Shown here: positions 38,097 through 64,000 of the stretch, one piece after another
How the letters are laid out: each line of letters begins with the position of its first letter
How positions within the stretch are numbered: position 1 is the first letter of the stretch
IMG/VR virus record: IMGVR_UViG_3300032282_001105
Span: 8,306-72,305 of that record
DNA: 64,000 bases
Strand: one strand, 5' to 3'
From: a virus
Position numbers and translations under genes: made by a program
Notes under the pieces: generated by a model
Database searches by the model: none
What the model was told of the DNA's origin: nothing
What the model saw: only the letters and a program-made list of their open reading frames with translations

Positions 38097-38704
38097 TGGA
38101 ATGGTATACTCACCACTCGGACAAATATACTGAATGGAATTTATATTTAAATTCGATAGAGAAATATTTTAATGTATGTAAAGATAACACTGTTTTAGAA
38201 ATAGCACCGTTGTTTGGTACACATACTAATTTAATTAAACATCACGGTGCTAAACAAATTACATTTGTTGAAATAAATGACAATGCAGTAAATGCGGCAT
38301 TACCCAACACGCATCCAGATTGTGAACTAATTATAGGTGATATATTTTCATACTTGTCAACTCCTAAAAAATTTGACGTAGTTGTGTGTTGCGGATTACT
38401 TTATCATCTGCACTCTCCGTTATATCTATTAGAATTGATTGCAAATAACATAGCACCTAAATTTATTATGTTAGAAACTTTTCCTTATAATCACGAAAAG
38501 ATGCACCACGCTTTAGTAAAAATTGAAGAAAATGAATCGTTACCTGATTGGAAAACGTGTGGTATTAAACTTGGTTTGGATCAAGAAATTTTTATAATTG
38601 CTATGAAAAATTTAGGGTATAAGTTAATAACAAGTGATACTAATATTACTAAGCCATCAAATCCTGATGCTGATTTGTTTTTAGGAGTGTTTGAAAAAAT
38701 ATGA
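38096..38704 (+). CDS. Class I SAM-dependent methyltransferase
   Basis: VLEIAPLFG motif I, ITFVE, GDI, FDVVVCCGLLYHL. TGATG coupling. Confidence 0.8.
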   Translation: MEWYTHHSDKYTEWNLYLNSIEKYFNVCKDNTVLEIAPLFGTHTNLIKHHGAKQITFVEINDNAVNAALPNTHPDCELIIGDIFSYLSTPKKFDVVVCCGLLYHLHSPLYLLELIANNIAPKFIMLETFPYNHEKMHHALVKIEENESLPDWKTCGIKLGLDQEIFIIAMKNLGYKLITSDTNITKPSNPDADLFLGVFEKI

Positions 38705-40266: not shown

Positions 40267-40267
40267 A

Positions 40268-41722
40268 ATGTCATCAAAAAAATATAACGAATCTTTTTCA
40301 GAATACAAAGCAAGATTAATTGACCCAGTAAGTGAAAGCTTTTGTGCCGCTAAATGGCTCAATGCTACTATCTGGTTGGGTAATGGTCAAACAACAAGTT
40401 GTCATCATCCACCTGGCCATCAGATTAATGCAGCCGAATTAGCAACTAATCCTACAGCAATTCACAATACACAACATAAAAAACTTATGCGTGAGATGAT
40501 GCAAATTGGCAAGAGACCAAAAGAATGTGAATACTGTTGGAAAATTGAAGATATGGAACGCGGTGCAATGAGCGACCGTGTTTATAAAACTGCGGTATTT
40601 GATGAAGCTGATATTAACAAAGCGGCACATAGTGATTGGCAAGATAACACAATGTTAAAAACATTGGAGATCAGTTTTGACCGTACGTGCAATTTTGCTT
40701 GTAGTTATTGTAATCCAAGTTTTAGTACAACGTGGGTAAAAGATATTAACAAGTTTGGTCCCTACAAAAACCTCGAGGGTGATGCAAGAGACCATTTTAA
40801 TAATGCCGCCGAGTCTGCTAAGCCTATACCAGATGAACAGAATCCATATACACAGGCTTTTTGGAAGTGGTGGGAAATGCCAAATGGTTTAGCTGATAAC
40901 CTAGAAGAAATACGTATTACAGGTGGTGAGCCATTAATGGCACCAGGCGTATGGAAATTATTCGAATGGTTCAGAGACAATCAACAACGTGTAATGAATA
41001 GACCTGATGGTAAAGTTATGCGTTTTGCTATCAATACTAACTTAGTACCTAGCGATGAGATTATGGATAGACTTATACAACTAAGTCACTATGTGCCCCA
41101 TTTAGAAATCTATACTAGCTGTGAGAGTTTTGGCCAACACGCACAATATATTCGTGACGGATTTGATTGGAACAAATGGATTCACAATTTACAAAGACTT
41201 CATAAAGAAAGTAATGTGAAAAAGACACATATGATGATGACTGTTAACAGTCTATGTCTTGCTAGTATTGTGCCTTTTATGGATCAAATGATTACATTTA
41301 AACAATTATATGATTCAATGTTCCCTATAATGACACTTAACATTTTACGATTTCCTAGTTTTCAGAGTTGTGTAGTGTTACCGGATCACATTAGAGAAAA
41401 ATATAGAAATGAATTACAAATTTGGTTGAACAATCAGATACAAATGAATCTTCATAATAGTAAAGGTGAGCCTTTATTATTACAAATGGAACGTGAACAC
41501 GTGCAAAGATTGATTGATTATTTGGATGTAGTGAAAACACCACATAGATATATGTCAGATATTGAAGTAACACGTAGAGATTTTAAACAATTCTATCATC
41601 AATATGATATTCGTAGAGGTAAGAATTTTAGAGCAACTTTCCCTCCTGAGTTTGTGCAATTTTATGATAGTATAGATGCACAATTGTCCCCACCAGAACA
41701 AATACTATCCGGTATTAATTAA
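40268..41722 (+). CDS. Radical SAM protein 2
   Basis: CNFACSYC, TGGEP; CAAKW..SCHH..CEYCW. Confidence 0.92.
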   Translation: MSSKKYNESFSEYKARLIDPVSESFCAAKWLNATIWLGNGQTTSCHHPPGHQINAAELATNPTAIHNTQHKKLMREMMQIGKRPKECEYCWKIEDMERGAMSDRVYKTAVFDEADINKAAHSDWQDNTMLKTLEISFDRTCNFACSYCNPSFSTTWVKDINKFGPYKNLEGDARDHFNNAAESAKPIPDEQNPYTQAFWKWWEMPNGLADNLEEIRITGGEPLMAPGVWKLFEWFRDNQQRVMNRPDGKVMRFAINTNLVPSDEIMDRLIQLSHYVPHLEIYTSCESFGQHAQYIRDGFDWNKWIHNLQRLHKESNVKKTHMMMTVNSLCLASIVPFMDQMITFKQLYDSMFPIMTLNILRFPSFQSCVVLPDHIREKYRNELQIWLNNQIQMNLHNSKGEPLLLQMEREHVQRLIDYLDVVKTPHRYMSDIEVTRRDFKQFYHQYDIRRGKNFRATFPPEFVQFYDSIDAQLSPPEQILSGIN

Positions 41723-41734
41723 CAAGAGAAAATT

Positions 41735-43255
41735 ATGGCAAGAGATTATAGCAAAAAAGAAACATACAAAGAGTTTAAGATTAGAGTCATCGATGATGTA
41801 TCTAAAACATATTGTGGGGCTAAATGGTATAATGCTACCATATGGTTGGGACATGGGCAAACTACAAGTTGCCATCACCCACCGGCACACAAAATTGATA
41901 TTAAAGAGATTGAAACAAATCCTTCTGCTATTCATAATACCCCTCATAAAAAATTAATGCGTAAGTTAATGCAAGAGGGGGAACGCCCTAATGAGTGTGA
42001 ATACTGCTGGAAAGTAGAAGATATGAACCGAGACGCAGTTTCGGATCGTGTATTTAAAACTCATATCTATTCTGATGAAGATATCTATGCTAGTGCCAAG
42101 ATGCCGTGGAATGCTGATGTTGAATTAAAAACTTTAGAAATCAGTTTTGACCGTACGTGTAATTTTGCTTGCTCATACTGTAACCCTGCATTCAGTACTA
42201 GTTGGGTACGTGATATTAAAAAACACGGTTCTTACAAAAATATCTTGTCTGATGGCCGTGGTCACTTTATTGATACAGCACCTTGGGCGGCTAGTGCAGG
42301 TGAATCAGATGATGACAATCCATACATTCAAGCATTCTGGAAGTGGTGGAATAGTTCATTACAAGATAACTTAGAAGAAATTCGTATTACAGGTGGTGAG
42401 CCATTAATGGCTCCTTCTGTTTGGAAGCTGTTTGAATGGTTTAAAGATAATCCAGAGAAGGCTAAAAAATTACGATTTGCAGTTAATAGTAATTTAGTTC
42501 CTAAGAAAGAAATTTTAGATAAACTAATTGAGATGAGTCATTTTGTACCACACTTAGAGATTTATACGAGTGGTGAAGCAAAAGGCCCACATAGCGAATA
42601 CATACGTGATGGTATGGAATATAAACAATGGTGGGAAAATCTACATAGATTACATACTGAGGGTAATATTCATTCTACACATATGATGATGACTATCAAT
42701 AGTTTGTGTCTTGCTAGTATTACTGAATTTATGGATGACGTATTAGAATTCAAACGTACACATAACACACGTAGTCCAACTATGAGTTTAAATATTTTAC
42801 GTTTCCCTAGTTTCCAAAGTTGTGCTATCTTACCAGATAGTATGAAACAGCATTATAAAGAAAAATTGCAAGCTTGGTATGATGAACAGTTAGCAAAAGA
42901 TGAACGTGTTAACATTGGTTGGATGGCTCCTATTCTTACAGAGGGTGAAAAGAATCAAATTGAACGTTTGATTGAATATCTTGATGTAGTTAAAACACCT
43001 CATCGTAATACAGCAGAACAACCTAAGTTATATAATGACTTCAGGGCATTCTATGAACAGTATGATGAACGTAGAGGTAAAAACTTTAGAGCTACATTCC
43101 CTCAAGATTATGTTGATTTCATTAATAGTTGTGAAATTATTGGCGGTGATAGTATTCGAGGCGAAGATCCTGCAACAACAGAAGCTGGTTATGTGAGTGA
43201 TGAAGTAGCACACGGTTGGGATGTTGATAACGACAGTTTGGGAAAAAATGTTTAA
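41735..43255 (+). CDS. Radical SAM protein 3 (close paralogue of protein 2)
   Basis: CNFACSYC, TGGEP; CGAKW..SCHH..CEYCW. Confidence 0.92.
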   Translation: MARDYSKKETYKEFKIRVIDDVSKTYCGAKWYNATIWLGHGQTTSCHHPPAHKIDIKEIETNPSAIHNTPHKKLMRKLMQEGERPNECEYCWKVEDMNRDAVSDRVFKTHIYSDEDIYASAKMPWNADVELKTLEISFDRTCNFACSYCNPAFSTSWVRDIKKHGSYKNILSDGRGHFIDTAPWAASAGESDDDNPYIQAFWKWWNSSLQDNLEEIRITGGEPLMAPSVWKLFEWFKDNPEKAKKLRFAVNSNLVPKKEILDKLIEMSHFVPHLEIYTSGEAKGPHSEYIRDGMEYKQWWENLHRLHTEGNIHSTHMMMTINSLCLASITEFMDDVLEFKRTHNTRSPTMSLNILRFPSFQSCAILPDSMKQHYKEKLQAWYDEQLAKDERVNIGWMAPILTEGEKNQIERLIEYLDVVKTPHRNTAEQPKLYNDFRAFYEQYDERRGKNFRATFPQDYVDFINSCEIIGGDSIRGEDPATTEAGYVSDEVAHGWDVDNDSLGKNV

Positions 43256-44469
43256 TGGATAGTACTACATATTGTCCTATGCCATGGATGCATTTGCACG
43301 TTTCTGTAACAGGAGGTGTGCAACCTTGCTGTATTGGGAAACAAATAGGAGATATACAAAAAAATAGTTTAGAAGATATTTGGAATAATGATGAGATGAA
43401 AGATATTCGTCTAAAGATGTTAAACAATGAAAAACCTAAACAATGTTCTGAATGCTATAATCGTGAAGATTTAGGCTCTGCGTCACTTAGAATAACCTCA
43501 ATACATAACTACGCAAATTTAGTTGACCCTATCAATGACACACAAGCTGATGGATCATTAACAGAAATGAAATTACGTTATGTTGATTTTAGATTCAATA
43601 ATCTTTGTAATTTTAAATGTAGAATTTGTAACCCAGTGTACAGTTCAAACATAGGCTCAGAAATAGTAAACTTTCACAAAATAGATTTAATAAACGTTGT
43701 CAATAAGAATGGTCCAATCCTATATGAGGAAATGAAAAAGCAATATGATAATGTTAAAAAGATATATTTTGCAGGTGGCGAACCTATTATGCAACGGGAA
43801 CATTTTCAAGTACTAAAAGATTTAATTGAAAGCGATAGAGCAAAAGACATTGAATTGATTTATAGCACTAATGGGAGTAGATTTAAAAATGGTTTGGGCA
43901 ATATGTTTGAATATTGGTCTCATTTTAAAAAAGTAGAAATAGTATTCTCATTAGATGGATATGGTTCTGCCGCAGAATATTGGCGTTCGGGCACAAATTG
44001 GGAAGAAGTAGAAGAAAATATAAAACATACAAAAAACTATCCTAATATTGTAGTAAAAGTCAATAGCGTAATAGGTTGGCCTAATATTTTTAATTGGATT
44101 AATTTTATAAAATATGCGTTAGAGACAGAGTTAATTGACGATCTTTTAAGTGCAATTGAAGTTATCCCTATTAATGATCCATATTGTTATGCACTAAGCG
44201 GTGTTCCTGAATTTAAGAAAAAAGAAATTATCAATGAATTAGAAAAATTTAAATATTACGTATGGGCATTTGCTTCACGTGTAAAATATACAAAACCCGC
44301 AGATTTATTAATGTGCATAGATGTTTTAATTAAAAGTGTAAACATTTCTGATACGCCATTTATAAAAAAACATTTCATAGTAAAAAATACAAAACTAGAT
44401 ACTTGGAGGGGTGAAGATTTCTTTACCGCATTTCCAGAACACGAAGATATGAGACCTTATATAACATGA
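43255..44469 (+). CDS. Radical SAM protein 4
   Basis: CNFKCRIC, AGGEP; CPMPW..PCC..CSEC. Confidence 0.92.
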   Translation: MDSTTYCPMPWMHLHVSVTGGVQPCCIGKQIGDIQKNSLEDIWNNDEMKDIRLKMLNNEKPKQCSECYNREDLGSASLRITSIHNYANLVDPINDTQADGSLTEMKLRYVDFRFNNLCNFKCRICNPVYSSNIGSEIVNFHKIDLINVVNKNGPILYEEMKKQYDNVKKIYFAGGEPIMQREHFQVLKDLIESDRAKDIELIYSTNGSRFKNGLGNMFEYWSHFKKVEIVFSLDGYGSAAEYWRSGTNWEEVEENIKHTKNYPNIVVKVNSVIGWPNIFNWINFIKYALETELIDDLLSAIEVIPINDPYCYALSGVPEFKKKEIINELEKFKYYVWAFASRVKYTKPADLLMCIDVLIKSVNISDTPFIKKHFIVKNTKLDTWRGEDFFTAFPEHEDMRPYIT

Positions 44470-45848
44470 ATAAAATAGTACCTATATGGGAACACGGACG
44501 AATTAGTCCAGATAGTCCTAATAAAGTTTTCTGTATGGCTCCTTGGACACATACTTACATATCACCTCAATCTGAACGTAGAATGTGTTGTGCTTCACGT
44601 GAGGAACATAGCTTTCAAAAGCAATATATTGATAGTAGCAATGATTCAAAGTATGGAGCTGTTACTGAGAGTAAAACAGCATTAGATGATTATAATCCAG
44701 TTTCATTAAAAGAACATTGGAATAGTGATTATATGAAAAATATACGCCGCAAATTAATGGCTGGTGAAGAAATACCACAATGTGATGTATGTAACAAAGA
44801 CTTGTTAAGTCAAAGTTCATATCGTCAGTGGTTTACTGGTAATTTGTTTATGGATAAGATACAAGAGGCATTCGATAAAACAGATGATACTGGACATACA
44901 ACTATGGAAGCAATCAGTTTTGATTATCGTTTCAGTAATCTATGTAATTTTAAATGTCGTATGTGCGGTGAACAATTAAGTTCTACTTGGGAAACTGAGA
45001 AAAAGATTAACAATCTTTGGAGCCCAAAGAATCAATCATTTATGATTCCAGAAATTAAATCTGCTATGCAAACATTCCAAGATGAAGTCGTAGAGCCTGA
45101 ATTCCGTGATGCGATTAGTCGTGGTATAGTAGAAGAATGCTATTGGGTAGGCGGTGAACCGTTAATGTACGATGTTCATTGGTGGGCATTAGAAGAAATG
45201 CTAAAGAACGGGTCAGCAAAAGATTGTTATATGCGTTATAATAGCAATTTAAGTCGTGTACAGTTCGGTCAAAAAAATCTATACGACTATCTACCTCACT
45301 TTAAAGATTGGTTAATGTGTGCAAGTATTGATGGCACGGGTAAGATAGGTGAATATATTCGTACAGGTTTAAAATGGGATCAATGGTTAGAAAATTTTAA
45401 ACAGGGACTTGAGTTACCGGGCGGTCATGATAAAATGATGATTGACTTGACCATCACAGGTCCGGGTATGTTCAGTCTTAAAGATTTGTTTGACTTAAGT
45501 CAGGAACTTGATGTACGTATTGAAACTAAGATTATGTTTGCCTTTCACGCAGATATAATGTTTACTGCAATGGCTTGGCCAAGACATATATTAAATAATA
45601 TAATTGATGATTTGCTAGCGTATATGGAGCCAAAAGCAACACGTAAACAAGAAACATTAATTAACACACTAAAGTCTATGAAAACTAGACAAAATCACGA
45701 AGAAGCGTTTCCAGAAACATATAAAACGGCTGCATTGAATGGTAAAAATTGGCTAAAAAGATTGGAGATCATTCGCAAAGATACATATACTATTGAAGAT
45801 ATATATTCTGAAAATAAAGAACTAATAACATGGTGGAACAACATATGA
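44466..45848 (+). CDS. Radical SAM protein 5
   Basis: CNFKCRMC, VGGEP; CMAPW..MCC..CDVC. Confidence 0.92.
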   Translation: MNKIVPIWEHGRISPDSPNKVFCMAPWTHTYISPQSERRMCCASREEHSFQKQYIDSSNDSKYGAVTESKTALDDYNPVSLKEHWNSDYMKNIRRKLMAGEEIPQCDVCNKDLLSQSSYRQWFTGNLFMDKIQEAFDKTDDTGHTTMEAISFDYRFSNLCNFKCRMCGEQLSSTWETEKKINNLWSPKNQSFMIPEIKSAMQTFQDEVVEPEFRDAISRGIVEECYWVGGEPLMYDVHWWALEEMLKNGSAKDCYMRYNSNLSRVQFGQKNLYDYLPHFKDWLMCASIDGTGKIGEYIRTGLKWDQWLENFKQGLELPGGHDKMMIDLTITGPGMFSLKDLFDLSQELDVRIETKIMFAFHADIMFTAMAWPRHILNNIIDDLLAYMEPKATRKQETLINTLKSMKTRQNHEEAFPETYKTAALNGKNWLKRLEIIRKDTYTIEDIYSENKELITWWNNI

Positions 45849-47107
45849 ACGAAACTAAAAAGGTATTTCCTATTAATACCGCAACTGCTTGTCAATACAA
45901 ATGGACTTGGAGTACAATCTATCTATCGCAGGGACAAACTAATAGTTGTCACCGAGTTGGTGGCGGGCATTTAGACGCTTGGAACTTTAAGAACTTTCAT
46001 AACTTGCCCGAAAAAATACGTGATAGAAAATTGATGTTAGAGGGTAAATGGCCTGATAATGAATGTAACTATTGTAAACGTATTGAAGACGCGGGTGGAC
46101 TAAGTGAACGTAACGGATACATTAATACGTTGGATATGGTTCCACCTGAATTGGATACTGATCCGACAGCAGTTGAAGTTACTCCTCGTATTTTAGAGAT
46201 TTACTTTAGTAACTTGTGTAATCAGTCTTGTGTCTACTGTTCACCTATGTTCAGTTCTGTAATTGAGAATGAGTTACGTAAACACGGCCCGTTAAGCAAA
46301 CGTTATTTCTTAGATGGTACTTGGGAACAAAATCCTTTATATGAACAGTGGAAGCGTGAGTTCTGGGAATGGATGCACGAAAACTCAACACACTTATATG
46401 ATTTCCAAGTACTTGGTGGTGAGCCAATGTTCCAACCAGAGTTTCAAGAGTGTTTAGACTTTTTTGAAGAAACAGAAAATCCTAACTTGAATTGGAAAAT
46501 GTTTAGTAATTTAAAACACGACCATGAACAGTTTAAAGTAAAAATCAACAAGATGGCTTCATTAATTCAACGTAAGAAAATGAAACGTATTGAAATTGTT
46601 GCTAGTATTGATTGCTGGGGAGATGAACAAGAATACGCTAGAAATGGTATGAGTTTAGCTAATTGGGAAAAGAACTTTAACTACTTGTTAGAAGTACCTG
46701 AAATTAGTATATTCATTCAATCTACTATCTCTCCTATTACTGCACCTACTGCATATCAATTAGTAGATAAAGTAATTGAGTGGAATAAGAAAAAACAAAT
46801 TCATCAAGGTTGGAATGTTGTCGCTAACCCTCCATTCTTAGATCCAAGTGTGTTTGGTCATTACTTGACAGACTATATGGACAAGTTAGCAGAATCAGCA
46901 CAGTCATTGAAACGTCCGCATTTCCCTGACATTAGTTATTTGGATGGATTCGTAACTCAAATTAAGAGTGCACCGGTTAACCTTGAAATGATGCGTGAGT
47001 TAAGAGATTACTTAGATGGTCTTGATGCACGTAGAAATCAAAATTGGCGTAGTATCTATCCTTGGATGGATGAGATTATGACTAAAGAATTGGGACCTAA
47101 AGAATGA
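45845..47107 (+). CDS. Radical SAM protein 6
   Basis: CNQSCVYC, LGGEP; CQYKW..SCHR..CNYC. Start placed at the ATGA overlap (45845). Confidence 0.92.
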   Translation: MNETKKVFPINTATACQYKWTWSTIYLSQGQTNSCHRVGGGHLDAWNFKNFHNLPEKIRDRKLMLEGKWPDNECNYCKRIEDAGGLSERNGYINTLDMVPPELDTDPTAVEVTPRILEIYFSNLCNQSCVYCSPMFSSVIENELRKHGPLSKRYFLDGTWEQNPLYEQWKREFWEWMHENSTHLYDFQVLGGEPMFQPEFQECLDFFEETENPNLNWKMFSNLKHDHEQFKVKINKMASLIQRKKMKRIEIVASIDCWGDEQEYARNGMSLANWEKNFNYLLEVPEISIFIQSTISPITAPTAYQLVDKVIEWNKKKQIHQGWNVVANPPFLDPSVFGHYLTDYMDKLAESAQSLKRPHFPDISYLDGFVTQIKSAPVNLEMMRELRDYLDGLDARRNQNWRSIYPWMDEIMTKELGPKE

Positions 47108-48294
47108 GTACATACTGCTCACTTCCTTGGATACACTTAGCAACGCACCCTCACGGGGGTGCGACTCTTTGCTGTGTAAGTGACCATAGAAATGCGGCAA
47201 GTAGTGCAAGAAATTTTGAACCATTACGTTACTTAGATGTAAATTCATCTACGATTGACAACATAATGAATAGTGATTACTTTAAGCAAACCAGATTGGA
47301 AATGCTGAATAATCAAGTTCCGCACGCCTGCCAACGTTGTTTTACTGAAGAATCAAATGGTGTACGCAGTAAGCGAGTAGAAGAAAATGAAAGACTAGGT
47401 TTTACTGAAGATATGGCACGTGCTATTACACGAAGTGATGGTACTATTCCTGTTAATTTTAAATTTGTTGAGTTACGTTTGGGTAACCTGTGTAATCTTA
47501 AATGTAGAACCTGTAACCCAATGAGTAGTACTAATTGGATTCAGCCATATCAAAAACTACAAGAAGAATTAAAGTTTGTTACTCACTATGATAGAAAGAT
47601 TAACAGTTCTTGGACAGAGAGTGATGAATTCTGGGATGACTTATTTCAACATAGCGAAGATTTACAGTTAATATATGTTAACGGTGGTGAACCTACATTG
47701 GTTGAAAAGCATTGGAAATATTTAGAAGAACTTATTAAACGTGGGTTAAACAAGCAAATTACCTTATGGTATAATATCAATATGACTAACTTGCCTGACG
47801 ATCTTATTGAATTGTGGAAACAATTTAAAAAAGTTCAGGTTACTTGTAGTATAGATGATTTGGGTGAACGCAATGATTATATTCGTGCAGGATCTGAATG
47901 GGATACTATAATTAATAACTTAGATAAGATACAGTCTTATCCTTGGATTGAAGCTAGCGTATGTCAAACAGTAAGTTGGATGAATGTTTATTATATCAAT
48001 GATTTTATAAAATATATGCGTTCACGCAACCTGCACGTACATTTAAATTATGTATACGATCCGGAGTTTTTATCACTTAAAGCATTGCCTGTACATTTGA
48101 AACAAATTGTATTAGATAGATGTACTGATTTAAACGAGTGGGAATTGAACAGCTTGCGTAGTCAATTTATTGACCAACCTGATATGACAGTATTTCGTCA
48201 AGGTGTTGAATATAACAATTGGTTAGACAATAACAATCGCACTTCATTTGCTAAAGTGTTTCCAGAATGGTATGAAATACTTAAAGGCGTTTAA
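47104..48294 (+). CDS. Radical SAM protein 7
   Basis: CNLKCRTC, NGGEP; CSLPW..LCC..CQRC. Confidence 0.92.
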   Translation: MSTYCSLPWIHLATHPHGGATLCCVSDHRNAASSARNFEPLRYLDVNSSTIDNIMNSDYFKQTRLEMLNNQVPHACQRCFTEESNGVRSKRVEENERLGFTEDMARAITRSDGTIPVNFKFVELRLGNLCNLKCRTCNPMSSTNWIQPYQKLQEELKFVTHYDRKINSSWTESDEFWDDLFQHSEDLQLIYVNGGEPTLVEKHWKYLEELIKRGLNKQITLWYNINMTNLPDDLIELWKQFKKVQVTCSIDDLGERNDYIRAGSEWDTIINNLDKIQSYPWIEASVCQTVSWMNVYYINDFIKYMRSRNLHVHLNYVYDPEFLSLKALPVHLKQIVLDRCTDLNEWELNSLRSQFIDQPDMTVFRQGVEYNNWLDNNNRTSFAKVFPEWYEILKGV

Positions 48295-49458
48295 ATGGAT
48301 TTAACTAGATTTAAAGAGTGCCCTGCAATAAAAAATTCAGTATATGTAGATAATCAAAGCAAGGTAGCACCTTGCTGTTATTTTAAATCTAAACTACCAA
48401 TTGAAGTGTTAAGTGATTGGAACAACTACCAAACTGAGCTTGCAAAAATTGATATAGAGACAGGTTGTGAGCATTGCATTAAATTAGAAAATTCCGGAGT
48501 AGAAGAATCACATCGCAATCGTTTTGTGCATAGATATAAAAGTGTTCTTAAGAAAGATGAGCTAGAAATATCTATCAGTGTAGATAATGTATGCAATCTT
48601 AAATGCACTACTTGCAATCCTATTAATAGTTCTTTATGGCTGGGTGACGCTATAAAATTAAACAGTTTAAACCCTAATTATAATTTAGATCAATTTTTAT
48701 CAGGGTTTAAAGATGGGAACTTTAAGTTAGATATTTGTAAAAAGATAATTGAGTCATACGAAAAAGATATTACGGTTATTCTATATGGTGGAGAACCCAC
48801 AATCAATAACGCCGTCATTGACTTTTTAGAGTGGTTGACAGAATTACCTAATGCACATTTAATATCAATAACGTTTATAACAAATGGCACTACTGTTCCT
48901 AAAAATATTGAAAATTATATTAATAAATTTAAAATGATTGATATAAATTTAAGTCTTGATTCAATAAACGAAAGAAGCGATTTTTTGCGTTTCCGTAGTC
49001 AATGGAAAGAACTTGAACAGAACGCAATAGTTTATGATTTATTAGCTTTAAAGTATAAAAATTTTGAATATAGGATACATCTTACTTTATCATTGTTAAA
49101 CGTTTATTATTTTTATGAATTTTGTAATTGGGTAAATAATACTTTAAACAACGTTGAAGTTATATTTACAAAGTTAATTGGACCTAGACACCTGTCTTTA
49201 GATTTATTGAATCCAAAACAAAAACAAATAGTGATAAATCATAATTTAAACTTACTTAATAAAATTGAATCTAAGGGTTTACAAAATATCAACCAGACAA
49301 TTAAAAATTATGAACAAATGGTAGAAACTTACATAGCTGATGTATATAAAGATGGATTAACACCAACTTTAGATTTTTTAACTAACTTAGATGATATCCG
49401 ATCTACTGCTTATAAAGTAACATTTCCTGAGATAGTAGAAATTTTAAATAATGAATAA
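48295..49458 (+). CDS. Radical SAM protein 8 (divergent, very AT-rich)
   Basis: CNLKCTTC, YGGEP; CPAI..PCC..CEHC. Confidence 0.9.
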   Translation: MDLTRFKECPAIKNSVYVDNQSKVAPCCYFKSKLPIEVLSDWNNYQTELAKIDIETGCEHCIKLENSGVEESHRNRFVHRYKSVLKKDELEISISVDNVCNLKCTTCNPINSSLWLGDAIKLNSLNPNYNLDQFLSGFKDGNFKLDICKKIIESYEKDITVILYGGEPTINNAVIDFLEWLTELPNAHLISITFITNGTTVPKNIENYINKFKMIDINLSLDSINERSDFLRFRSQWKELEQNAIVYDLLALKYKNFEYRIHLTLSLLNVYYFYEFCNWVNNTLNNVEVIFTKLIGPRHLSLDLLNPKQKQIVINHNLNLLNKIESKGLQNINQTIKNYEQMVETYIADVYKDGLTPTLDFLTNLDDIRSTAYKVTFPEIVEILNNE

Positions 49459-50689
49459 GAAACTGTTACAAGACCTTAGAAATCAAACAAGTCAAACATT
49501 ATGTTTGGCTAAATTCCACGAATCTACTATATGGTTATACGAAAGTAAGATTGCAAGTTGCCATCATACACCTTTTCTGTTAACAGGCAATGATACATTA
49601 ACATTTTATAATCCTGAAGGTAGACGACAGCAACAGTATTCTATGCTTAAGGGTAATAAACCAGATGAATGCAACTATTGCTGGAAACTTGAAGCACAAG
49701 ATGTTGTTAGTGATAGAGAAAAGAAATCCCTAGCATTTAACTCATCATTAACAGCAGAACAATATTTAGATAAGACATATCCATTTAAACCCAAAGCACT
49801 TGAGCTTGCATTCCAGAACACGTGTAATTTAGCTTGTAGTTACTGTAGCCCTAGTTTTAGTACTGAATGGGAGAATGATATACGCTTGAAGGGCAACTAT
49901 GAGAATATCACTACTGATAAAAAGATGCATTACCAGCGCGGTATTGATAATCGCACTCCGGTAGATATGACATTGTTTTGGGAGTGGTTCAATGATATTG
50001 CTCCTGAGTTAGAAAGTATACGTATCACAGGTGGCGAGCCACTATTACACGAAGATACATTTGCTACATTTGCTAAAATGATTGAGGTTAATCCTAATGT
50101 AGAATGTGTTGTGCATACAAATATGTGTCAGAAGCCATTGGTGGTACAACGTTTTATTGATGGTATCTCTAAGTTAAACAACGTAAGACTCAACATAAGT
50201 AATGAAAGTGCAGGAGAGGTCGCAGAGTTTATACGTGATGGTATGGTATATAGTGATTGGCTTAGAAACGTAACTGAAGTAGCTAAAACAAAAGCTACTA
50301 TGAGTATAAGCACTACAATAACACCTATATCATTACTAGCACTAGACCAATTATATTTGGATATTATTGATATACGCAAACAAACAGGTAAGAAAGTAGA
50401 TATCTCAATTAACTTTGCTACATACCCTGAGTTTCAAAGCTTGGCTGCTTTGTCAAGTGAAGAACGTGCTTTCTATTTAAACAAGTATACTAAGTTTTTT
50501 GAATCTATTGATTCATTGTTATTAGATAGTGAACGACATTCTGTTCCTAGATTTTTAACAATGTTAGATCCTAAATTAACACATACAGACAACTTAGCAT
50601 ATAGAAAAGACTCTGACAGTTTTTTTAAACAATATGTAATTAGAAGAAACAAGTCAATCAATTTTGCAGAACAGATTGGAACAAGATGA
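49451..50689 (+). CDS. Radical SAM protein 9
   Basis: CNLACSYC, TGGEP; CLAKF..SCHH..CNYCW. Confidence 0.92.
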   Translation: MNKKLLQDLRNQTSQTLCLAKFHESTIWLYESKIASCHHTPFLLTGNDTLTFYNPEGRRQQQYSMLKGNKPDECNYCWKLEAQDVVSDREKKSLAFNSSLTAEQYLDKTYPFKPKALELAFQNTCNLACSYCSPSFSTEWENDIRLKGNYENITTDKKMHYQRGIDNRTPVDMTLFWEWFNDIAPELESIRITGGEPLLHEDTFATFAKMIEVNPNVECVVHTNMCQKPLVVQRFIDGISKLNNVRLNISNESAGEVAEFIRDGMVYSDWLRNVTEVAKTKATMSISTTITPISLLALDQLYLDIIDIRKQTGKKVDISINFATYPEFQSLAALSSEERAFYLNKYTKFFESIDSLLLDSERHSVPRFLTMLDPKLTHTDNLAYRKDSDSFFKQYVIRRNKSINFAEQIGTR

Positions 50690-51861
50690 AAGACGCACCA
50701 AAGAATTTATGTAGTCTATTATGGACAGGGTTTAGCAATGAACCTGATGGTCGTGTTCAACCTTGTTGTCTATATAAAGGATACATTGAAGAAGATGGAA
50801 AGCCAATGTATGTACAAACACATTCAGTAGATGAAATATTTCATAGTAAATATATGAAAAACTTGCGTACACAGTTTAGAAATAATGAGCGTCCTGCAGG
50901 ATGTAGCACGTGTTGGACTGACGAAGATAACAACTATGACAGTAAACGTGTAATATATAACACCAAGATACATCATAATTTTGGTATTAATTGGACAATT
51001 GAGCCAGTTGAAATAACAGAGTTTCAACTTATCATTAGCAATAGTTGTAATTTAAAGTGTCGCAGTTGCACACCAAGCCATAGTAGTCAATGGCAACAAG
51101 AAATGAAAATGTTAACTGGGTCTACTGGTTACGAAATGCCACACGGACAGTCAGCAGAAGAAGCCGGTAAATTATGGTTAGATAGACATCGTTGGTACAA
51201 GAATCTAAAACGTTTAGAAGTTGTAGGTGGAGAACCATTCTATGTTAAACAATGGCATACTATGTTCAATGAGTTAATTGATTTGGGTTATAGTAAAAAC
51301 ATTGATATTACATTAACAACTAATTGTACACTATTCTTTCCTGAGTTGATAACTAGAATAGCTGAAAATTTTAAATCAGTTTCGATTGGTTTGAGTATAG
51401 ATGGCATAGGATCAACGTATGAATATATGAGACATTTGGGTAAATGGCCAATCGTGTATGATAATATGAAAAAATATCACGAATTGACTGATAGAATTAA
51501 TATTCAGTTAAACCTGACTATTAGTTGGCTGAATGTATTAGAAGTACCGGAGTTACACGAATTGATTAGTAATGAATTCCCTAAATTTAAAATATGGAAC
51601 AATCTTGTACATTATCCTCAGCATCTTTGTGTATGGGCAATACCTGAAGAATTAAAGAAAGCAGTATCGGATAAGTGGGATAAATATCAATGGAAAAACG
51701 AGTATAAAGATACTATGCAAGGTGTATTAAATTATATGAATAGCAAATCAACTACAAATGAAGAATTCAAAAAGAATTTAAAAATAATTTATAAGACCGA
51801 TGAATTTAGAAAAGAAAACATCACACAATCTATACCAGCACTACAGGAATTTTTAAAGTGA
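50686..51861 (+). CDS. Radical SAM protein 10
   Basis: CNLKCRSC, VGGEP; CSLLW..PCC..CSTCW. Confidence 0.92.
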   Translation: MKDAPKNLCSLLWTGFSNEPDGRVQPCCLYKGYIEEDGKPMYVQTHSVDEIFHSKYMKNLRTQFRNNERPAGCSTCWTDEDNNYDSKRVIYNTKIHHNFGINWTIEPVEITEFQLIISNSCNLKCRSCTPSHSSQWQQEMKMLTGSTGYEMPHGQSAEEAGKLWLDRHRWYKNLKRLEVVGGEPFYVKQWHTMFNELIDLGYSKNIDITLTTNCTLFFPELITRIAENFKSVSIGLSIDGIGSTYEYMRHLGKWPIVYDNMKKYHELTDRINIQLNLTISWLNVLEVPELHELISNEFPKFKIWNNLVHYPQHLCVWAIPEELKKAVSDKWDKYQWKNEYKDTMQGVLNYMNSKSTTNEEFKKNLKIIYKTDEFRKENITQSIPALQEFLK

Positions 51862-62443: not shown

Positions 62444-63346
62444 TAGTTCTGGATATTGTGTGAAGAATCTATCAATTTCATACTGAGTAGCGTAAGGTGG
62501 ATATCCAAACTGAGTCCATCTACTAGGATCATATGGTAATCGTTTAATAGTTCCATCAGGGTTAGCTACTTGGTCATAGTACGGTTTATTGAAATCGTAC
62601 CAAGAAGAATGACTATTCATTTTTTTATTTAATGTTGCATCTATGTTTGCACTAGCGTGATGAATTTTTAAATGAAATTTACCATCACTTTTAATATTAA
62701 ACGTTTCTATATTTACACCTATTATTTTATTATACGAATAGAATTGTGATTGTTGTGATTGAATATTTAAAAGATATGGAATATTAATGTGGCTAAATTT
62801 ATTGGTATATTTTAAATATATCATAAATTCAAAATCATCAAAGTGAGTAACAACATAGTTGTCATCAAAGTAACAATCTTTTTCATACATTGCTTGAGGA
62901 TTGAATCCTACTAAATTACCTAAATTATGTAAATCGTGTTTGAACACATCCATTGGTTCAGGTCTATTCCAAAAGTTCCATAGTTGTTGTGGCCAACATC
63001 CGAATGTTGTTGATCCATAATGTTTTGCAAAATCACTAGTTATAATTAACGGTGTAGCATTATCCATTTCAACATCAGCTTGCATTAAAACAGCATGGTC
63101 TAGGCCCATCTTTTGTGCTACTTTAAATATCCAATTATATCCACCAGCAGATCCTATATTATATTCACTGGCATAGTAAATCATATCATTAACCTTACAC
63201 CAATATTTCATTAGAGGTTGGTTACCATTGTCTAACACAACAAATTTAATATTATTGGTTTTGAAATGCTCCTGTACAAATTTTACAGGATAAAATTGCC
63301 ACCATAATAGTTGTTCGTTATAGGTTAATAAAAATACATAAATCAT
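62426..63346 (-). CDS. GT2-like glycosyltransferase
   Basis: VFLLTYN, VVLDNG, NIGSAGGYN, MQADVE, FDDNY...FDDFEF. TAAATA on the minus strand at 63359-63354. Confidence 0.7.
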   Translation of the reverse strand: MIYVFLLTYNEQLLWWQFYPVKFVQEHFKTNNIKFVVLDNGNQPLMKYWCKVNDMIYYASEYNIGSAGGYNWIFKVAQKMGLDHAVLMQADVEMDNATPLIITSDFAKHYGSTTFGCWPQQLWNFWNRPEPMDVFKHDLHNLGNLVGFNPQAMYEKDCYFDDNYVVTHFDDFEFMIYLKYTNKFSHINIPYLLNIQSQQSQFYSYNKIIGVNIETFNIKSDGKFHLKIHHASANIDATLNKKMNSHSSWYDFNKPYYDQVANPDGTIKRLPYDPSRWTQFGYPPYATQYEIDRFFTQYPELLKVES

Positions 63347-63372
63347 ATTAACTTATTTAGACCCAAAAGTAG

Positions 63373-63401
63373 TTGACCTTAACTAAATACTATGCTATAG
63401 T
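63373..63401 (+). promoter_or_regulatory. sigma70 promoter of ssrA: TTGACC-N17-TATAGT with extended TG, and a nested TAAATA
   Basis: TTGACC 63373-78, TG 63393-94, TATAGT 63396-401; TAAATA at 63384-89 within the spacer. Confidence 0.75.
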
Positions 63402-63405
63402 ATAA

Positions 63406-63472
63406 GTTATTGCTGTATGAAGCAAAGAGAAAAGTGTTCTGGACGGGGGTGCGAATCCCCCCAGGTCCACCA
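63406..63472 (+). ncRNA. ssrA: tmRNA acceptor piece (3' half of a circularly permuted two-piece tmRNA)
   Basis: T-arm GGGGG-TGCGAAT-CCCCC followed by CAGGTCC-A-CCA ending at 63472. The 5' end is estimated from the promoter. Confidence 0.9.
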
Positions 63473-63495
63473 TAAGGAGATTGAATAAATACTAG

Positions 63496-63801
63496 ATGCG
63501 AATACAAGAACTAACCGAATCATTTAACCGTTGTTATGACAAAGCCTGCAAGGCTTATGATTTGGCCAAGTCTAAAGGTTTACATCCTAAACTAATACAA
63601 GTTGCTGGTTACAAAGGTGATGGGTCAAACGCAGACGAAAAGTGGCAAAAATTACCACAAAGAGTTTGGCAACACTATGTAACTGTAATCGGTGATACAG
63701 TATTTGATCCAACTGCCAAACAGTTTGGCCCAGATAAAGAAGTAAAGTATAGTTTAGATAAGTTAGATTCTGAATGGGATTACCAGTATTTTATTAGATA
63801 A
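63496..63801 (+). CDS. Small papain/transglutaminase-fold-like protein nested in the tmRNA intervening segment
   Basis: 101 aa; NRCYD (Cys), WQHYVTV (His), VFDPTAKQF (Asp). TAAATA at 63486-91. Confidence 0.65.
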   Translation: MRIQELTESFNRCYDKACKAYDLAKSKGLHPKLIQVAGYKGDGSNADEKWQKLPQRVWQHYVTVIGDTVFDPTAKQFGPDKEVKYSLDKLDSEWDYQYFIR

Positions 63802-63814
63802 GTCTTTTTATGAT

Positions 63815-64000
63815 GGGCCTGATATAGATTCGACAGGGCAACAAGTAAATTAGTGGACAGCTCGGCAAAGCAGAAGCCGTAGGATTGAGGTAACTCGGTC
63901 GTAGAAGCAAAAAAGAGAAATGCAAATGACTCACAATATTTGGTAGCAGTTAACGCTTGACGCCAAACGAGGTAGTTATACCTTGTAACCAAAAATAGCA
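63815..64000 (+). ncRNA. ssrA: tmRNA coding piece (5' half) with tag reading frame ANDSQYLVAVNA*; may extend past the window
   Basis: GGGCCTG at 63815 pairs with CAGGTCC including the G3.U70 alanine determinant. GATTCGAC D-loop-like motif. CAGGGCA pairs with TGTTCTG (helix 2a). Resume codon GCA at 63922, stop TGA at 63958-60. Confidence 0.9.

What the first reader, a model, noticed from the sequence alone, without database searches (positions are those of the whole stretch)
63373..64000. Circularly permuted two-piece tmRNA with a whole protein-coding gene inside its intervening segment
Seen: the tRNA-like 3' end (T-arm, CAGGTCC-A-CCA, ending 63472) lies upstream of the 5' end (GGGCCTG, 63815) and the tag frame. 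The 342 nt between them hold a 101-codon ORF with its own TAAATA. The flanks CATAAGGAGATT (63471-82) and AGTCTTTTTATG (63801-12) pair and extend the acceptor helix, so the ORF sits in the loop. Established: permuted ssrA occurs in alpha-proteobacteria, some beta-proteobacteria and some cyanobacteria, normally with a short non-coding intervening hairpin removed during maturation. Inference: tmRNA processing would excise an end-paired RNA that can serve as an mRNA, tying the protein to ribosome rescue, or the loop is a safe harbour for cargo genes.
Basis: partly seen in the sequence, partly recalled or inferred. Interest (0 to 1): 0.9.

Follow-up and report, generated by a model that had tools for sequence, protein, structure and literature searches.

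The report
Protein gene inside phage tmRNA spacer
A large uncultured freshwater phage carries a two-piece ribosome-rescue RNA (tmRNA) gene whose normally discarded spacer holds a real, selected 101-codon gene for a small cysteine-enzyme-like protein, and related phages use the same stem-closed spacer as an exchangeable slot for many other small genes.

Summary
Rfam's permuted-tmRNA model matches window 63411-63960 over its full length (84.9 bits, cut-off 47), with a roughly 330-nt insertion in the intervening segment (IVS). The 3' acceptor piece ends in CCA at 63472 and the 5' acceptor strand starts at 63815. The 342 nt between them hold a 101-codon ORF (63496-63801). The window ends at the contig end, but two relatives with the same ORF show a terminator and the next gene right after the coding piece, so this is one permuted gene, not two ssrA copies.

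The ORF is a real gene. dN/dS is 0.12-0.21, and its domain recurs in 146 proteins. The confident model (pLDDT 89) gives weak but coherent papain/transglutaminase-like fold matches (Z about 5). Cys13, His60 and Asp71 are invariant.

The flanks form the claimed 12-bp extension of the acceptor stem, which encloses the Shine-Dalgarno sequence.

In a sample of 84 distinct related phage IVSs, lengths run from 25 nt (plain hairpin) to 491 nt, and about 30 are coding-like. Backbones identical to the window's carry other cargo or none. The "cargo slot" reading is therefore supported; a specific link to ribosome rescue is not.

I found no paper describing this. Earlier notes of this scan report the same phenomenon on other DNA.

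The parts
63373..63401 (+). Sigma-70-type promoter of the tmRNA precursor: TTGACC, 17-nt spacer, TATAGT, with TG before the -10 hexamer. The predicted start is about 63408-63411.
   Evidence: 10 of 12 consensus matches, the best of 6 sites found in 63200-64000 (shuffles give a mean of 2.6 sites). It lies just upstream of the start of the Rfam match (63411). This is a consensus match only.
63411..63472 (+). Acceptor (3') piece of the two-piece tmRNA: the 3' strand of P2, the T-arm (stem GGGGG/CCCCC, loop TGCGAAT), the acceptor 3' strand 63462-63468, discriminator A 63469 and encoded CCA 63470-63472.
   Evidence: Rfam RF04321 alignment, model positions 1 to about 63; sequence. The 62 nt are 100% identical in at least 14 other phage loci.
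63473..63814 (+). Intervening segment (IVS) of 342 nt. It is absent from the mature tmRNA and lies in the loop between the two acceptor strands.
   Evidence: about 330 nt of insertion in the model's IVS loop. (same 342-nt length in L003 and L004). (IVS of 25-491 nt in relatives).
63469..63482 (+). 5' strand of the helix that extends the acceptor stem. A63469 pairs with U63814, and C63470 is mismatched with A63813. Bases 63471-63482 pair with 63801-63812. This strand contains the Shine-Dalgarno sequence AAGGAG (63475-63480).
   Evidence: in the MFE and centroid folds. (17 distinct relatives: 94.9% of cells paired against 37-49% when slid, and 3 pairs with compensatory changes). (register shown for 33 loci).
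63484..63491 (+). AATAAATA, a 7-of-8 match to the T4-type late-promoter motif TATAAATA (motif recalled). It lies 4 nt before the ATG and is shared by the five cargo types whose IVS has this leader.
   Evidence: same leader in L003, L004, L012, L025 and L211. Function was not tested. The motif is absent from L212 and L243, where the SD lies 5 nt from the ATG.
63496..63801 (+). Protein-coding gene of 101 aa (stop TAA 63799-63801). It is a small papain/transglutaminase-like domain with invariant Cys13, His60 and Asp71.
   Evidence: ORF. (dN/dS 0.12-0.21). (7 homologues, invariant C/H/D). (146 proteins at E<=1e-3). (pLDDT 89.2). (fold matches).
63801..63814 (+). 3' strand of the extension helix, which is also the leader in front of G1 (AGTCTTTTTATGAT). 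It is non-coding here. In short-IVS relatives it carries the last codons and the TGA stop of the peptide ORF.
63815..64000 (+). Coding (5') piece of the tmRNA, cut off by the contig end. It holds the acceptor 5' strand GGGCCTG (63815-63821, with G3 opposite U70), the D-loop analogue, the 5' strand of P2 and a hairpin. The tag frame runs from resume codon GCA 63922-63924 to TGA 63958-63960 and reads ANDSQYLVAVNA.
   Evidence: alignment to model positions 87-213. (sequence; tag read by hand). (in L003 and L004 this piece ends in a terminator hairpin about 50-70 nt after the tag stop).

Best explanation
This is one functional, circularly permuted (two-piece, betaproteobacterial-type) tmRNA gene of a large uncultured myovirus-like freshwater phage. 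A single promoter transcribes the acceptor piece, the 342-nt intervening segment and the coding piece as one precursor.

The intervening segment is the expanded loop of the hairpin that, in the simplest relatives (25 nt), merely continues the acceptor stem. Here the purine-rich 5' strand of that stem reads as a Shine-Dalgarno sequence. The loop holds a selected 101-codon gene for a minimal papain/transglutaminase-like Cys-His-Asp protein.

The spacer works as an expression slot. It is transcribed with a strongly expressed stable-RNA gene, needs no splicing, and does not harm the tmRNA because maturation removes it. Its conserved stem flanks let cargo be swapped between phages by recombination.

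Shown: the gene layout, coding selection, the helix, cargo diversity, and discordance between cargo and backbone.

Inferred:
- The ORF is translated from the precursor, or from the piece that remains attached to the acceptor piece after RNase P cuts at G1.
- The SD-containing stem restrains translation and protects the RNA end.
- Trimming back to CCA then finishes the tmRNA.
- The protein is an enzyme used in phage-host conflict rather than in ribosome rescue.
For: tmRNA identity:
- RF04321 scores 84.9 bits over the full model.
- Relatives score 101-136 bits.
- Four of four short-IVS relatives tested also pass beta_tmRNA RF01850 at 105-116 bits against a cut-off of 84.
- ARAGORN calls a permuted tmRNA in L003.

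One gene, not two:
- L003 and L004 have a terminator and the next gene directly after the coding piece.
- P2 pairs differ in a compensating way between the window and L003 (alignments).

Coding:
- dN/dS is 0.151, 0.118 and 0.206, with 39 of 67, 45 of 74 and 21 of 30 differences at third codon positions.
- Seven close homologues were found.
- 146 proteins match at E<=1e-3, 38 of them at E<=1e-30.
- The model has pLDDT 89.2.

Fold:
- Best VIA rows are TglA Z 5.4, SseI 5.2 and LapG 5.1, followed by PeiW, NTAQ1, protein-glutaminases, PMT and transglutaminases.
- Foldseek's best match is SseI, E 0.14, probability 0.94.
- The nearest Atlas cluster is viral, with Tox-PL-2 on 11% of members.
- C13, H60 and D71 are invariant in 7 of 7 sequences.

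Helix.

Slot:
- 84 distinct IVSs of 25-491 nt were sampled. 30 or 31 are coding-like, against a shuffle mean of 6.0 and a maximum of 12.
- For IVSs of 130 nt or more, 15 of 21 are coding-like against 0.97 expected.

Exchange: the window's 62-nt acceptor piece is 100% identical in at least 14 loci whose IVSs are 25, 87, 98, 115, 138, 174 or 382 nt. L003 and L004, which share the ORF, are only 82% and 71% identical in that piece.

Transcription: no + strand terminator-like site lies in 63200-64000.
Against: - Nothing here shows transcription, processing, alanylation or translation.
- The SD is 15 nt from the ATG in this cargo type, which is long. Other cargo types have 4-6 nt.
- The SD is buried in a helix.
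- The AATAAATA motif before the ATG could mean the ORF has its own late promoter and does not depend on the tmRNA transcript.
- The fold matches are weak (Z about 5, Foldseek E 0.14), and Pfam hits are below cut-off.
- The distances between the three triad residues in the model were not measured.
- The tag ends in AVNA rather than the usual LAA, so the tmRNA's function could be altered.
- No SmpB gene is on the contig, but the contig is estimated at 17% complete.
- The helix columns 1-18 were fixed by my search pattern, so only the 3' strand and the distal pairs are informative.
- RNA-library contigs are assemblies, mostly from relatives. They cannot show RNA ends.
Confidence: 0.72

Rival explanations
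1. The ORF is a self-contained moron with its own late promoter (AATAAATA at 63484-63491). It merely sits in a tolerant site. It is expressed late, independently of the tmRNA precursor, possibly as a leaderless or near-leaderless mRNA. The SD-like sequence is only a stem strand.
For: The leader GATTGAATAAATAYTAG before the ATG is shared by five cargo types. SD-to-ATG spacing is 15 nt here, against 4-6 nt in other cargo types. Similar ATAAATA motifs lie just upstream of the tmRNA genes of several relatives (up-flanks printed).
Against: Other cargo with the same N-terminus (L212, L243) lacks the motif and has the SD 5 nt from the ATG. A start 6 nt after the motif would fall inside the ATG. The motif's role as a promoter in these phages is recalled from T4 biology and was not tested.
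Confidence: 0.15
2. The insertion has disabled the tmRNA. The locus would then be a decaying ssrA gene that now serves only as promoter and flanks for the protein gene.
For: The tag ends in AVNA rather than LAA. The T-loop has G where U55 is usual. In L004 the T-arm and D-loop analogue have diverged and Rfam gives no hit at the gathering score. ARAGORN finds nothing in the window.
Against: The window scores 84.9 bits over the full model, with G3-U70, the discriminator A and encoded CCA all intact. The acceptor piece is 100% identical to loci with a 25-nt IVS. The TGCGAAT T-loop is common to the whole sample. ARAGORN's miss is explained by the contig end. L003, which has the same insert, is called by both ARAGORN and Rfam at 101 bits.
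Confidence: 0.08
3. The two halves belong to separate ssrA copies: an upstream 3' fragment (for example an attachment-site remnant) and a downstream one-piece gene that continues past base 64000.
For: The window ends 40 nt after the tag stop, so the 3' end of the coding piece cannot be seen here.
Against: In L003 and L004 the homologous coding piece ends in a terminator hairpin followed by an unrelated gene. In 84 distinct relatives the T-arm is followed within 25-491 nt by the matching 5' acceptor strand. The P2 and acceptor pairings join the two halves.
Confidence: 0.03

Closest known systems
Phage-encoded two-piece (permuted) tmRNA genes of aquatic myophages (OM43 phage Melnitz, pelagimyophages; PMC9004378, passages read)
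   Same: A phage-borne, circularly permuted ssrA in an aquatic phage with contractile-tail genes. The precursor is transcribed from one promoter. Such genes are reported as common in marine and aquatic phages (53 two-piece forms among 133 unique phage tmRNAs).
   Different: In the passages I read, that paper describes a glutamine riboswitch in the 3' domain and no protein gene in the intervening segment. The window's gene has no nucleotide match in the GenBank phage collection. Only the roughly 65-nt tRNA-like part of a relative matches cultured phages.
Bacterial permuted tmRNA genes (Alphaproteobacteria, some Betaproteobacteria, Cyanobacteria; Rfam RF01849, RF01850, RF01851 and RF04321; PMC11915505, passages read)
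   Same: The same gene order, tRNA-like domain, G3-U70 pair, encoded CCA and tag frame. The short IVS hairpin that continues the acceptor stem is seen here in relatives with a 25-nt IVS. Short-IVS relatives pass the betaproteobacterial model.
   Different: Here the IVS is 342 nt and carries an SD and a selected protein gene. The 2025 database paper singles out a tRNA-Ala gene and a repetitive element in an IVS as unusual. It mentions no protein gene in the passages I read. Its supplements were not seen.
Group I introns in the T-loop of tmRNA genes, some with homing-endonuclease genes (PMC11915505, passages read)
   Same: A protein gene nested in a part of the tmRNA gene that is absent from the mature RNA.
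   Different: No intron and no splicing are involved here. Removal uses the ordinary end-maturation of the two pieces. The cargo is not a homing endonuclease: Pfam gives no nuclease hit.
Papain-like / transglutaminase-like Cys-His-Asp enzymes (TglA, SseI, LapG, PeiW, NTAQ1, protein-glutaminase, PMT C3 domain; Pfam Tox-PL families)
   Same: The order Cys (on a helix), His (start of a strand), Asp (next strand). These are the best structural rows. Sequence hits to Tox-PLDMTX and YunG are weak.
   Different: At 101 aa this protein is smaller than any listed match. It is below every Pfam cut-off. Z is only about 5. Its activity and substrate are unknown.
Phage morons and the mobile small genes of T4 tRNA regions
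   Same: Small accessory genes of varied function sit in a tolerant, well-expressed spot of a phage genome and are exchanged between relatives.
   Different: The spot here lies inside a stable-RNA gene, between two halves that must pair, and the RBS is built into a processing stem.

Membership tests
Permuted (two-piece) tmRNA, Rfam RF04321 | Covariance-model score at or above the gathering score, over the full model | tested here: met
   84.9 bits against 47, E 8e-15, model positions 1-213 of 213
Permuted (two-piece) tmRNA, Rfam RF04321 | The acceptor (3') piece lies upstream of the coding (5') piece on one strand, and the two are joined by the acceptor and P2 pairings | tested here: met
   P2 pairs change in a compensating way between the window and L003.
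Permuted (two-piece) tmRNA, Rfam RF04321 | tRNA-Ala-like domain: T-arm, 7-bp acceptor stem with G3-U70, discriminator A, CCA | tested here: met
   The T-loop reads TGCGAAT, with G at the usual U55. The whole sample shares this.
Permuted (two-piece) tmRNA, Rfam RF04321 | Tag reading frame with a GCA resume codon and a stop | tested here: met
   63922-63960 reads ANDSQYLVAVNA then stop. The C-terminus is not the usual LAA.
Permuted (two-piece) tmRNA, Rfam RF04321 | No second tRNA-like 3' end after the coding piece | tested here: inconclusive
   The window ends at the contig end. The feature is met in both relatives with the same ORF.
Permuted (two-piece) tmRNA, Rfam RF04321 | Processing into two paired RNAs, charging with alanine, SmpB-dependent tagging | not testable with these tools
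   Needs experiments. RNA-library contigs cannot show RNA ends.
Betaproteobacterial-type two-piece tmRNA, Rfam RF01850 | Score at or above 84 bits | tested here: inconclusive
   It is not listed for the window at gathering, where the gene is cut by the contig end and holds a 342-nt insert. Four of four short-IVS relatives tested score 105-116 bits.
Papain-like / transglutaminase-like cysteine enzymes | Shared fold | tested here: inconclusive
   Best Z values are 5.4, 5.2 and 5.1 (TglA, SseI, LapG; rmsd 2.7-3.4 over 76-82 residues). Foldseek's best is SseI at E 0.14, probability 0.94. The matches are coherent but in the range the tool calls common.
Papain-like / transglutaminase-like cysteine enzymes | Conserved Cys, His, Asp in that order | tested here: met
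   C13, H60 and D71 are invariant in 7 of 7 sequences and 10 of 10 rows. Their spatial proximity in the model was not measured.
Pfam Tox-PLDMTX (PF15645) / YunG (PF24585) | Score at or above the Pfam gathering score | tested here: not met
   13.7 bits against 26.1, and 15.1 bits against 27
Intron- or spacer-borne homing endonuclease genes | A nuclease domain (HNH, LAGLIDADG, GIY-YIG) in the nested ORF | tested here: not met
   No such Pfam, PHROG or NCBIfam hit for the 101-aa protein

The most novel reading that the evidence does not exclude
The pre-tmRNA is a programmed dual-use transcript. The SD and the end of the ORF are locked in the stem that RNase P and the 3'-end trimming enzymes recognise. 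Translation of the cargo and maturation of the tmRNA are therefore mutually exclusive and ordered: the transcript acts first as messenger and then as stable-RNA precursor. The conserved stem flanks make the spacer a recombination cassette site. Aquatic phages would use this site to trade small conflict genes, here a minimal Cys-His-Asp enzyme.
Probability: 0.4. Interest if true: 0.85.

Novelty: new variant of a known kind. Interest (0 to 1): 0.75.

Why it matters
The spacer of a permuted tmRNA gene has been treated as disposable. Here it is a frequent, selected coding site: about 30 of 84 distinct spacers in one phage tmRNA lineage are coding-like.

This matters in three ways:
- A protein gene can be nested in a stable-RNA gene without an intron.
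- Annotation pipelines would probably miss such genes, because they lie inside an RNA gene call.
- The site offers a natural system for studying how RNA processing and translation compete on one transcript.

It also points to a pool of small phage proteins, including membrane-type peptides and minimal enzymes, that are probably expressed whenever the phage tmRNA is made.

Tried and rejected
- ARAGORN on the window gave nothing. The contig end explains this.
- GenBank phage searches found no counterpart. The locus gave no match and neither did the protein. The tmRNA of a short-IVS relative matched only across about 65 nt of the tRNA-like part in Stenotrophomonas, Xanthomonas and other phages. 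No cultured counterpart was found.
- The genome-contig scan with a degenerate T-arm/acceptor pattern (stopped at 120 rows) was too unspecific. Nearly all rows are ordinary tRNA or one-piece tmRNA 3' ends, and it gave no host. Only L067 and L146 look like this tmRNA lineage.
- Pfam, PHROGs and NCBIfam gave no family for the 101-aa protein at their cut-offs.
- No SmpB gene was found on the contig. This is uninformative, because the contig is estimated at 17% complete.
- In one search my "first start codon" rule picked spurious TTG starts for 7 loci: L037, L030, L003, L004, the window, L025 and L012.
- MAFFT misaligned the His/Asp region of the L012 and L025 proteins. I judged their relation to the window's protein by eye only.
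- RNA libraries gave limited information.
  - All four runs are kept as contigs.
  - They cover 63396-63491 and 63804-63947 at summed word depths of up to hundreds. Most of these contigs are relatives' tmRNAs that leave the window's sequence inside the IVS (loose ends at 63474-63476; joints skipping 322-341 nt).
  - The ORF interior has no cover in X1 and X9.
  - One 179-nt contig in X2 (depth 3.2, 2 differences) spans 63658-63822, from the ORF's 3' half into the 5' acceptor strand. It may be DNA carry-over.
- Five literature searches found no paper on a protein gene in a tmRNA intervening segment. I read passages only of PMC11915505, PMC9004378 and PMC4131195. Supplements were closed and could list such cases. 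Subscription journals are not covered.
- I did not use complex prediction, the second structure job, or a covariance model of my own.
Full report
**Where the window lies.** The window is the last 64,000 bases of a 72,305-bp IMG/VR virus record that CheckV estimates at 17% complete. Window base 64000 is therefore a contig end. Other genes in the window match a baseplate wedge subunit (E 4e-257), a baseplate hub/tail lysozyme and virion structural proteins. The record is thus a fragment of a large phage with contractile-tail genes. G+C content is 32-38%.

- a T-arm
- the acceptor 3' strand CAGGTCC (63462-63468)
- discriminator A (63469) and CCA (63470-63472)
- 342 nt of spacer (63473-63814)
- GGGCCTG starting at 63815

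Rfam's merged permuted-tmRNA model RF04321 matches 63411-63960 over all 213 model positions. It scores 84.9 bits against a gathering score of 47, with E 8e-15, and places about 330 nt of insertion in the intervening loop. G3 lies opposite U70. The tag frame runs from GCA at 63922 to TGA at 63958-63960 and reads ANDSQYLVAVNA.

A near-consensus promoter lies at 63373-63401: TTGACC, 17 nt, TATAGT, preceded by TG. This is just upstream of the model start. No + strand terminator-like site lies between it and the window's end. ARAGORN reports nothing in the window, which fits a gene cut by the contig end.

**One gene, not two.** It cannot be checked on this contig, so I searched viral contigs with the ORF protein. 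This found two relatives: L003 on a 115-kb contig (76% aa identity) and L004 on a 332-kb contig (74%). Both have the same layout and a 342-nt spacer.
- In L003, Rfam gives 101 bits and ARAGORN calls a permuted tmRNA.
- In both relatives the coding piece ends in a G+C-rich hairpin followed by a T-run, some 50-70 nt after the tag stop. An unrelated gene follows at once. There is no room for a one-piece 3' half.
- The outer and inner P2 pairings, which join the upstream piece to the downstream piece, differ between the window and L003 in a compensating way (alignments).
- L004's T-arm and D-loop analogue have diverged, and Rfam gives no hit there at the gathering score.

**The ORF is a real gene.** Between the window, L003 and L004, 39 of 67, 45 of 74 and 21 of 30 nucleotide differences fall at third codon positions. 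dN/dS is 0.151, 0.118 and 0.206, and dS is 1.0 or more against the window.

A word-indexed search found 7 homologues. A profile search of 1.84 billion representative proteins found 146 at E<=1e-3, 55 at E<=1e-10 and 38 at E<=1e-30. Most of the strong hits are internal domains of proteins 265-1447 aa long. I scanned ten of these with Pfam. Five had some family call: cytidine deaminase in three, GNAT in one, NUDIX in one, and DUF5661/DUF4116 in one. None of the calls covered the matching domain.

**What the protein looks like.** Cys13, His60 and Asp71 are invariant. AlphaFold2 run on the 7-sequence alignment gives a confident model (pLDDT 89.2, pTM 0.77).
- Foldseek's best PDB rows are SseI (E 0.14, probability 0.94), C39 peptidase domains and cathepsins.
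- The Foldseek-independent search gives TglA (Z 5.4), SseI (5.2) and LapG (5.1). These are followed by PeiW, NTAQ1, protein-glutaminases, the Pasteurella toxin thiol-protease-like domain, arylamine N-acetyltransferases and transglutaminases.
- The scores are modest, and the tool warns that Z below 8 may reflect only a common arrangement. The rows nevertheless name one superfamily.
- That superfamily agrees with the sub-threshold Pfam hits Tox-PLDMTX and YunG. It also agrees with the nearest Atlas cluster, which is viral and has Tox-PL-2 on 11% of its members.

I read the protein as a minimal papain/transglutaminase-like Cys-His-Asp domain of unknown substrate.

**The stem.** Bases 63471-63482 pair with 63801-63812 in 12 of 12 positions, three of them G-U. 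A63469 also pairs with U63814, leaving a C-A mismatch between the two helical segments. This continues the acceptor stem to about 21 pairs. The helix is present in both the minimum-free-energy and the centroid structures of 63411-63880 (z -3.57).

In 17 distinct short-spacer relatives, 94.9% of cells pair, against 37-49% when the partner strand is slid by 1-3 columns. Three distal pairs show changes on both sides. One caveat applies. Columns 1-18 of that alignment were fixed by my search pattern, so only the 3' strand and the distal pairs carry information.

The second sample was not selected on the spacer. It shows the same helix with freely varying sequence, for example AAGCATA...TATGCTT, AAACATA...TATGTTT and AAGAATT...AATTCTT.

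**The spacer as a slot: first sample.** An exact 19-mer spanning the acceptor end and the SD found 34 loci. Three are chance hits without a T-arm (L014, L027, L038), and one is L003's own contig.

In 23 loci (15 distinct sequences) the spacer is 76-94 nt. After the SD comes a start codon 4-6 nt on and an ORF of 20-26 codons. The peptide is strongly hydrophobic (GRAVY 1.47-2.71), and its TGA lies in the conserved TTATGAT, 1 nt before G1.

Other loci in this sample hold different ORFs:
- an ORF of about 32 codons, read by hand (L037, L030)
- an 83-aa ORF (L011)
- 34-36-aa ORFs within spacers of 448-474 nt (L029, L036)
- a 125-aa ORF (L025)
- a 151-aa ORF (L012)

**The spacer as a slot: second sample.** These yield 84 distinct complete spacers of 25-491 nt.
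- The shortest (25-28 nt) are plain hairpins.
- Many of 55-119 nt have no SD and no spanning ORF.
- My rule for "coding-like" was an SD-like word within 16 nt upstream of the start, an ORF covering at least 60% of the spacer, and at least 15 codons. It flags 30 of 84, or 31 of 84 in the variant used for the control.
- Shuffling the spacer interiors gives a mean of 6.0 and a maximum of 12 in 200 shuffles.
- For spacers of 130 nt or more, 15 of 21 are flagged against 0.97 expected.
- The rule misses some clear cases, including the window's own cargo type (SD 15 nt from the ATG). It also flags a few doubtful ones with GTG or TTG starts (L263, L187, L210).

**Cargo and backbone disagree.** The window's 62-nt acceptor piece is 100% identical in at least 14 loci. 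Their spacers are 25, 87, 98, 115, 138, 174 or 382 nt, and their first 110 nt of coding piece are 82-93% identical to the window's. L003 and L004, which share the window's ORF, are only 82% and 71% identical in the acceptor piece and 83% and 75% in the coding piece (129 loci compared). The same cargo therefore sits in different backbones, and the same backbone carries different cargo or none. This is what exchange by recombination at the conserved stem flanks would produce.

**Shared N-terminus.** At least five different cargo proteins begin M-R/Q-I-x-E/D-I/L. They are the 101-aa protein, the 151-aa and 125-aa proteins that also have Cys...His...Asp motifs, and the GNAT-like 111-aa (L237; cut to 86 codons at the contig end in L211) and 122-aa proteins. 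I cannot explain this shared N-terminus.

**tmRNA type and host.** Four of four short-spacer relatives tested pass Rfam's betaproteobacterial two-piece model over its full length (105-116 bits, cut-off 84). The host is unknown. The bacterial-genome scan was uninformative.

**Expression.** Four freshwater metatranscriptome runs, all kept as contigs, hold contigs over both mature parts. Most of them are relatives that diverge inside the spacer. One low-depth contig in X2 runs from the ORF's 3' half into the 5' acceptor strand. This shows neither RNA ends nor translation.

**How it most likely works.**

Shown:
- One promoter-like site, with no + strand terminator, covers both tmRNA pieces and the ORF.
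- The ORF is under protein-level selection.
- The SD lies in the stem.

Inferred:
- The precursor is cut by RNase P at G1 (63815).
- The RNA upstream of that cut carries the acceptor piece and the spacer. Its 3' end is paired to the SD region, and this RNA, or the uncut precursor, is the messenger.
- A ribosome reaching the stop codon at 63799-63801 would open the stem. Exonucleases could then trim back to CCA and complete the acceptor piece.

Alternatively, the AATAAATA motif at 63484-63491 is a late promoter that gives the ORF its own transcript. The motif's role is recalled from T4 biology and was not tested.

The diversity of cargo argues that the slot is a safe, well-expressed site. It argues against a device tied specifically to ribosome rescue.

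**What is known.** Two-piece tmRNA genes in marine and aquatic phages are published (PMC9004378, passages read). The 2025 tmRNA database paper lists 79 phage sequences. It singles out a tRNA-Ala gene in an intervening sequence as a unique feature and notes a repetitive element in the longest one. It describes homing-endonuclease genes only in T-loop introns (PMC11915505, passages read). A 2014 survey lists only one-piece phage examples (PMC4131195, passages read).

Five full-text searches found no paper on a protein gene in a tmRNA intervening segment. Supplements were closed and subscription journals are not covered.

Earlier AI notes of this scan describe the same phenomenon on other genomes, including a 342-letter case and an 89-letter peptide case. 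I reached the same reading from my own calls. I treat those notes as agreement, not as evidence.

**Verdict.**
- I class this as a new variant of a known kind, a permuted tmRNA gene with a coding spacer.

Noticed in passing
window 14426-31579 (+): A single ORF of 5,717 codons lies directly after the baseplate genes. It is a giant phage protein, perhaps a fibre or other structural protein.
   Followed up: no
window 38701-51861 (+): A head-to-tail run of eleven ORFs of 387-521 aa. The first two give weak radical-SAM PHROG hits. A carbamoyltransferase, an epimerase and a C-methyltransferase follow further downstream. This looks like a large sugar or small-molecule modification cluster.
   Followed up: partly
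window 63922-63960: The tag peptide ends in AVNA instead of the ALAA or AIAA seen in relatives such as ANDSQFALAA, ANDEQFALAA and ANDSLYAIAA. It may not be recognised like a standard degradation tag.
   Followed up: no
L008, L024, L006, L013, L028, L035 (coding pieces): In several relatives the tag frame does not stop after about 10 codons. It runs on for 30 or more codons within the 150 nt printed, which suggests unusually long tags.
   Followed up: no
L004 2940-2977 and 3319-3345; L018, L034: These genes have an aberrant T-arm (loop without TTCGA or TGCGA), and at the same time a changed D-loop analogue (ATCGATTGGGTC instead of TTCGACAGGGC). L004 gives no Rfam hit at gathering. The two loops may have co-varied, or the gene may be decaying.
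   Followed up: no
IVS starts of window, L003, L004, L012, L025, L211/L237, L212, L243: At least five different cargo proteins share the N-terminus M-R/Q-I-x-E/D-I/L. In the large homologues the match starts only at residue 5-8 of the 101-aa protein. The cause is unexplained. It could be a recombination junction inside the ORF or a translation signal.
   Followed up: partly
L161, L241, L167, L183, L186 (IVS 98-100 nt): Some spacer ORFs do not stop before G1. They run 13-39 nt into the mature coding piece, so the reading frame overlaps mature tmRNA sequence.
   Followed up: no
L036 (oriented) about 442-470 nt after CCA: Directly after the 5' acceptor strand comes a second acceptor-like CCAGGTCCACCA and then a terminator-like hairpin. 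This looks like a rearranged or degenerate copy.
   Followed up: no
L067 and L146 (genome contigs): Two records in bacterial genome bins carry the same tmRNA lineage. L067 is titled a Crocinitomicaceae MAG and has a 61-nt spacer. L146 has an 84-nt spacer with an SD-like word and an ATG. They are probably phage contigs binned with bacteria, or prophages.
   Followed up: no
window 63725-63753 (+): A weaker sigma-70-like site (TTGGCC, 17 nt, TATAGT; 9 of 12 matches) lies inside the ORF, about 60 nt before the coding piece. It could let the coding piece be transcribed on its own, but it is within chance expectation.
   Followed up: no
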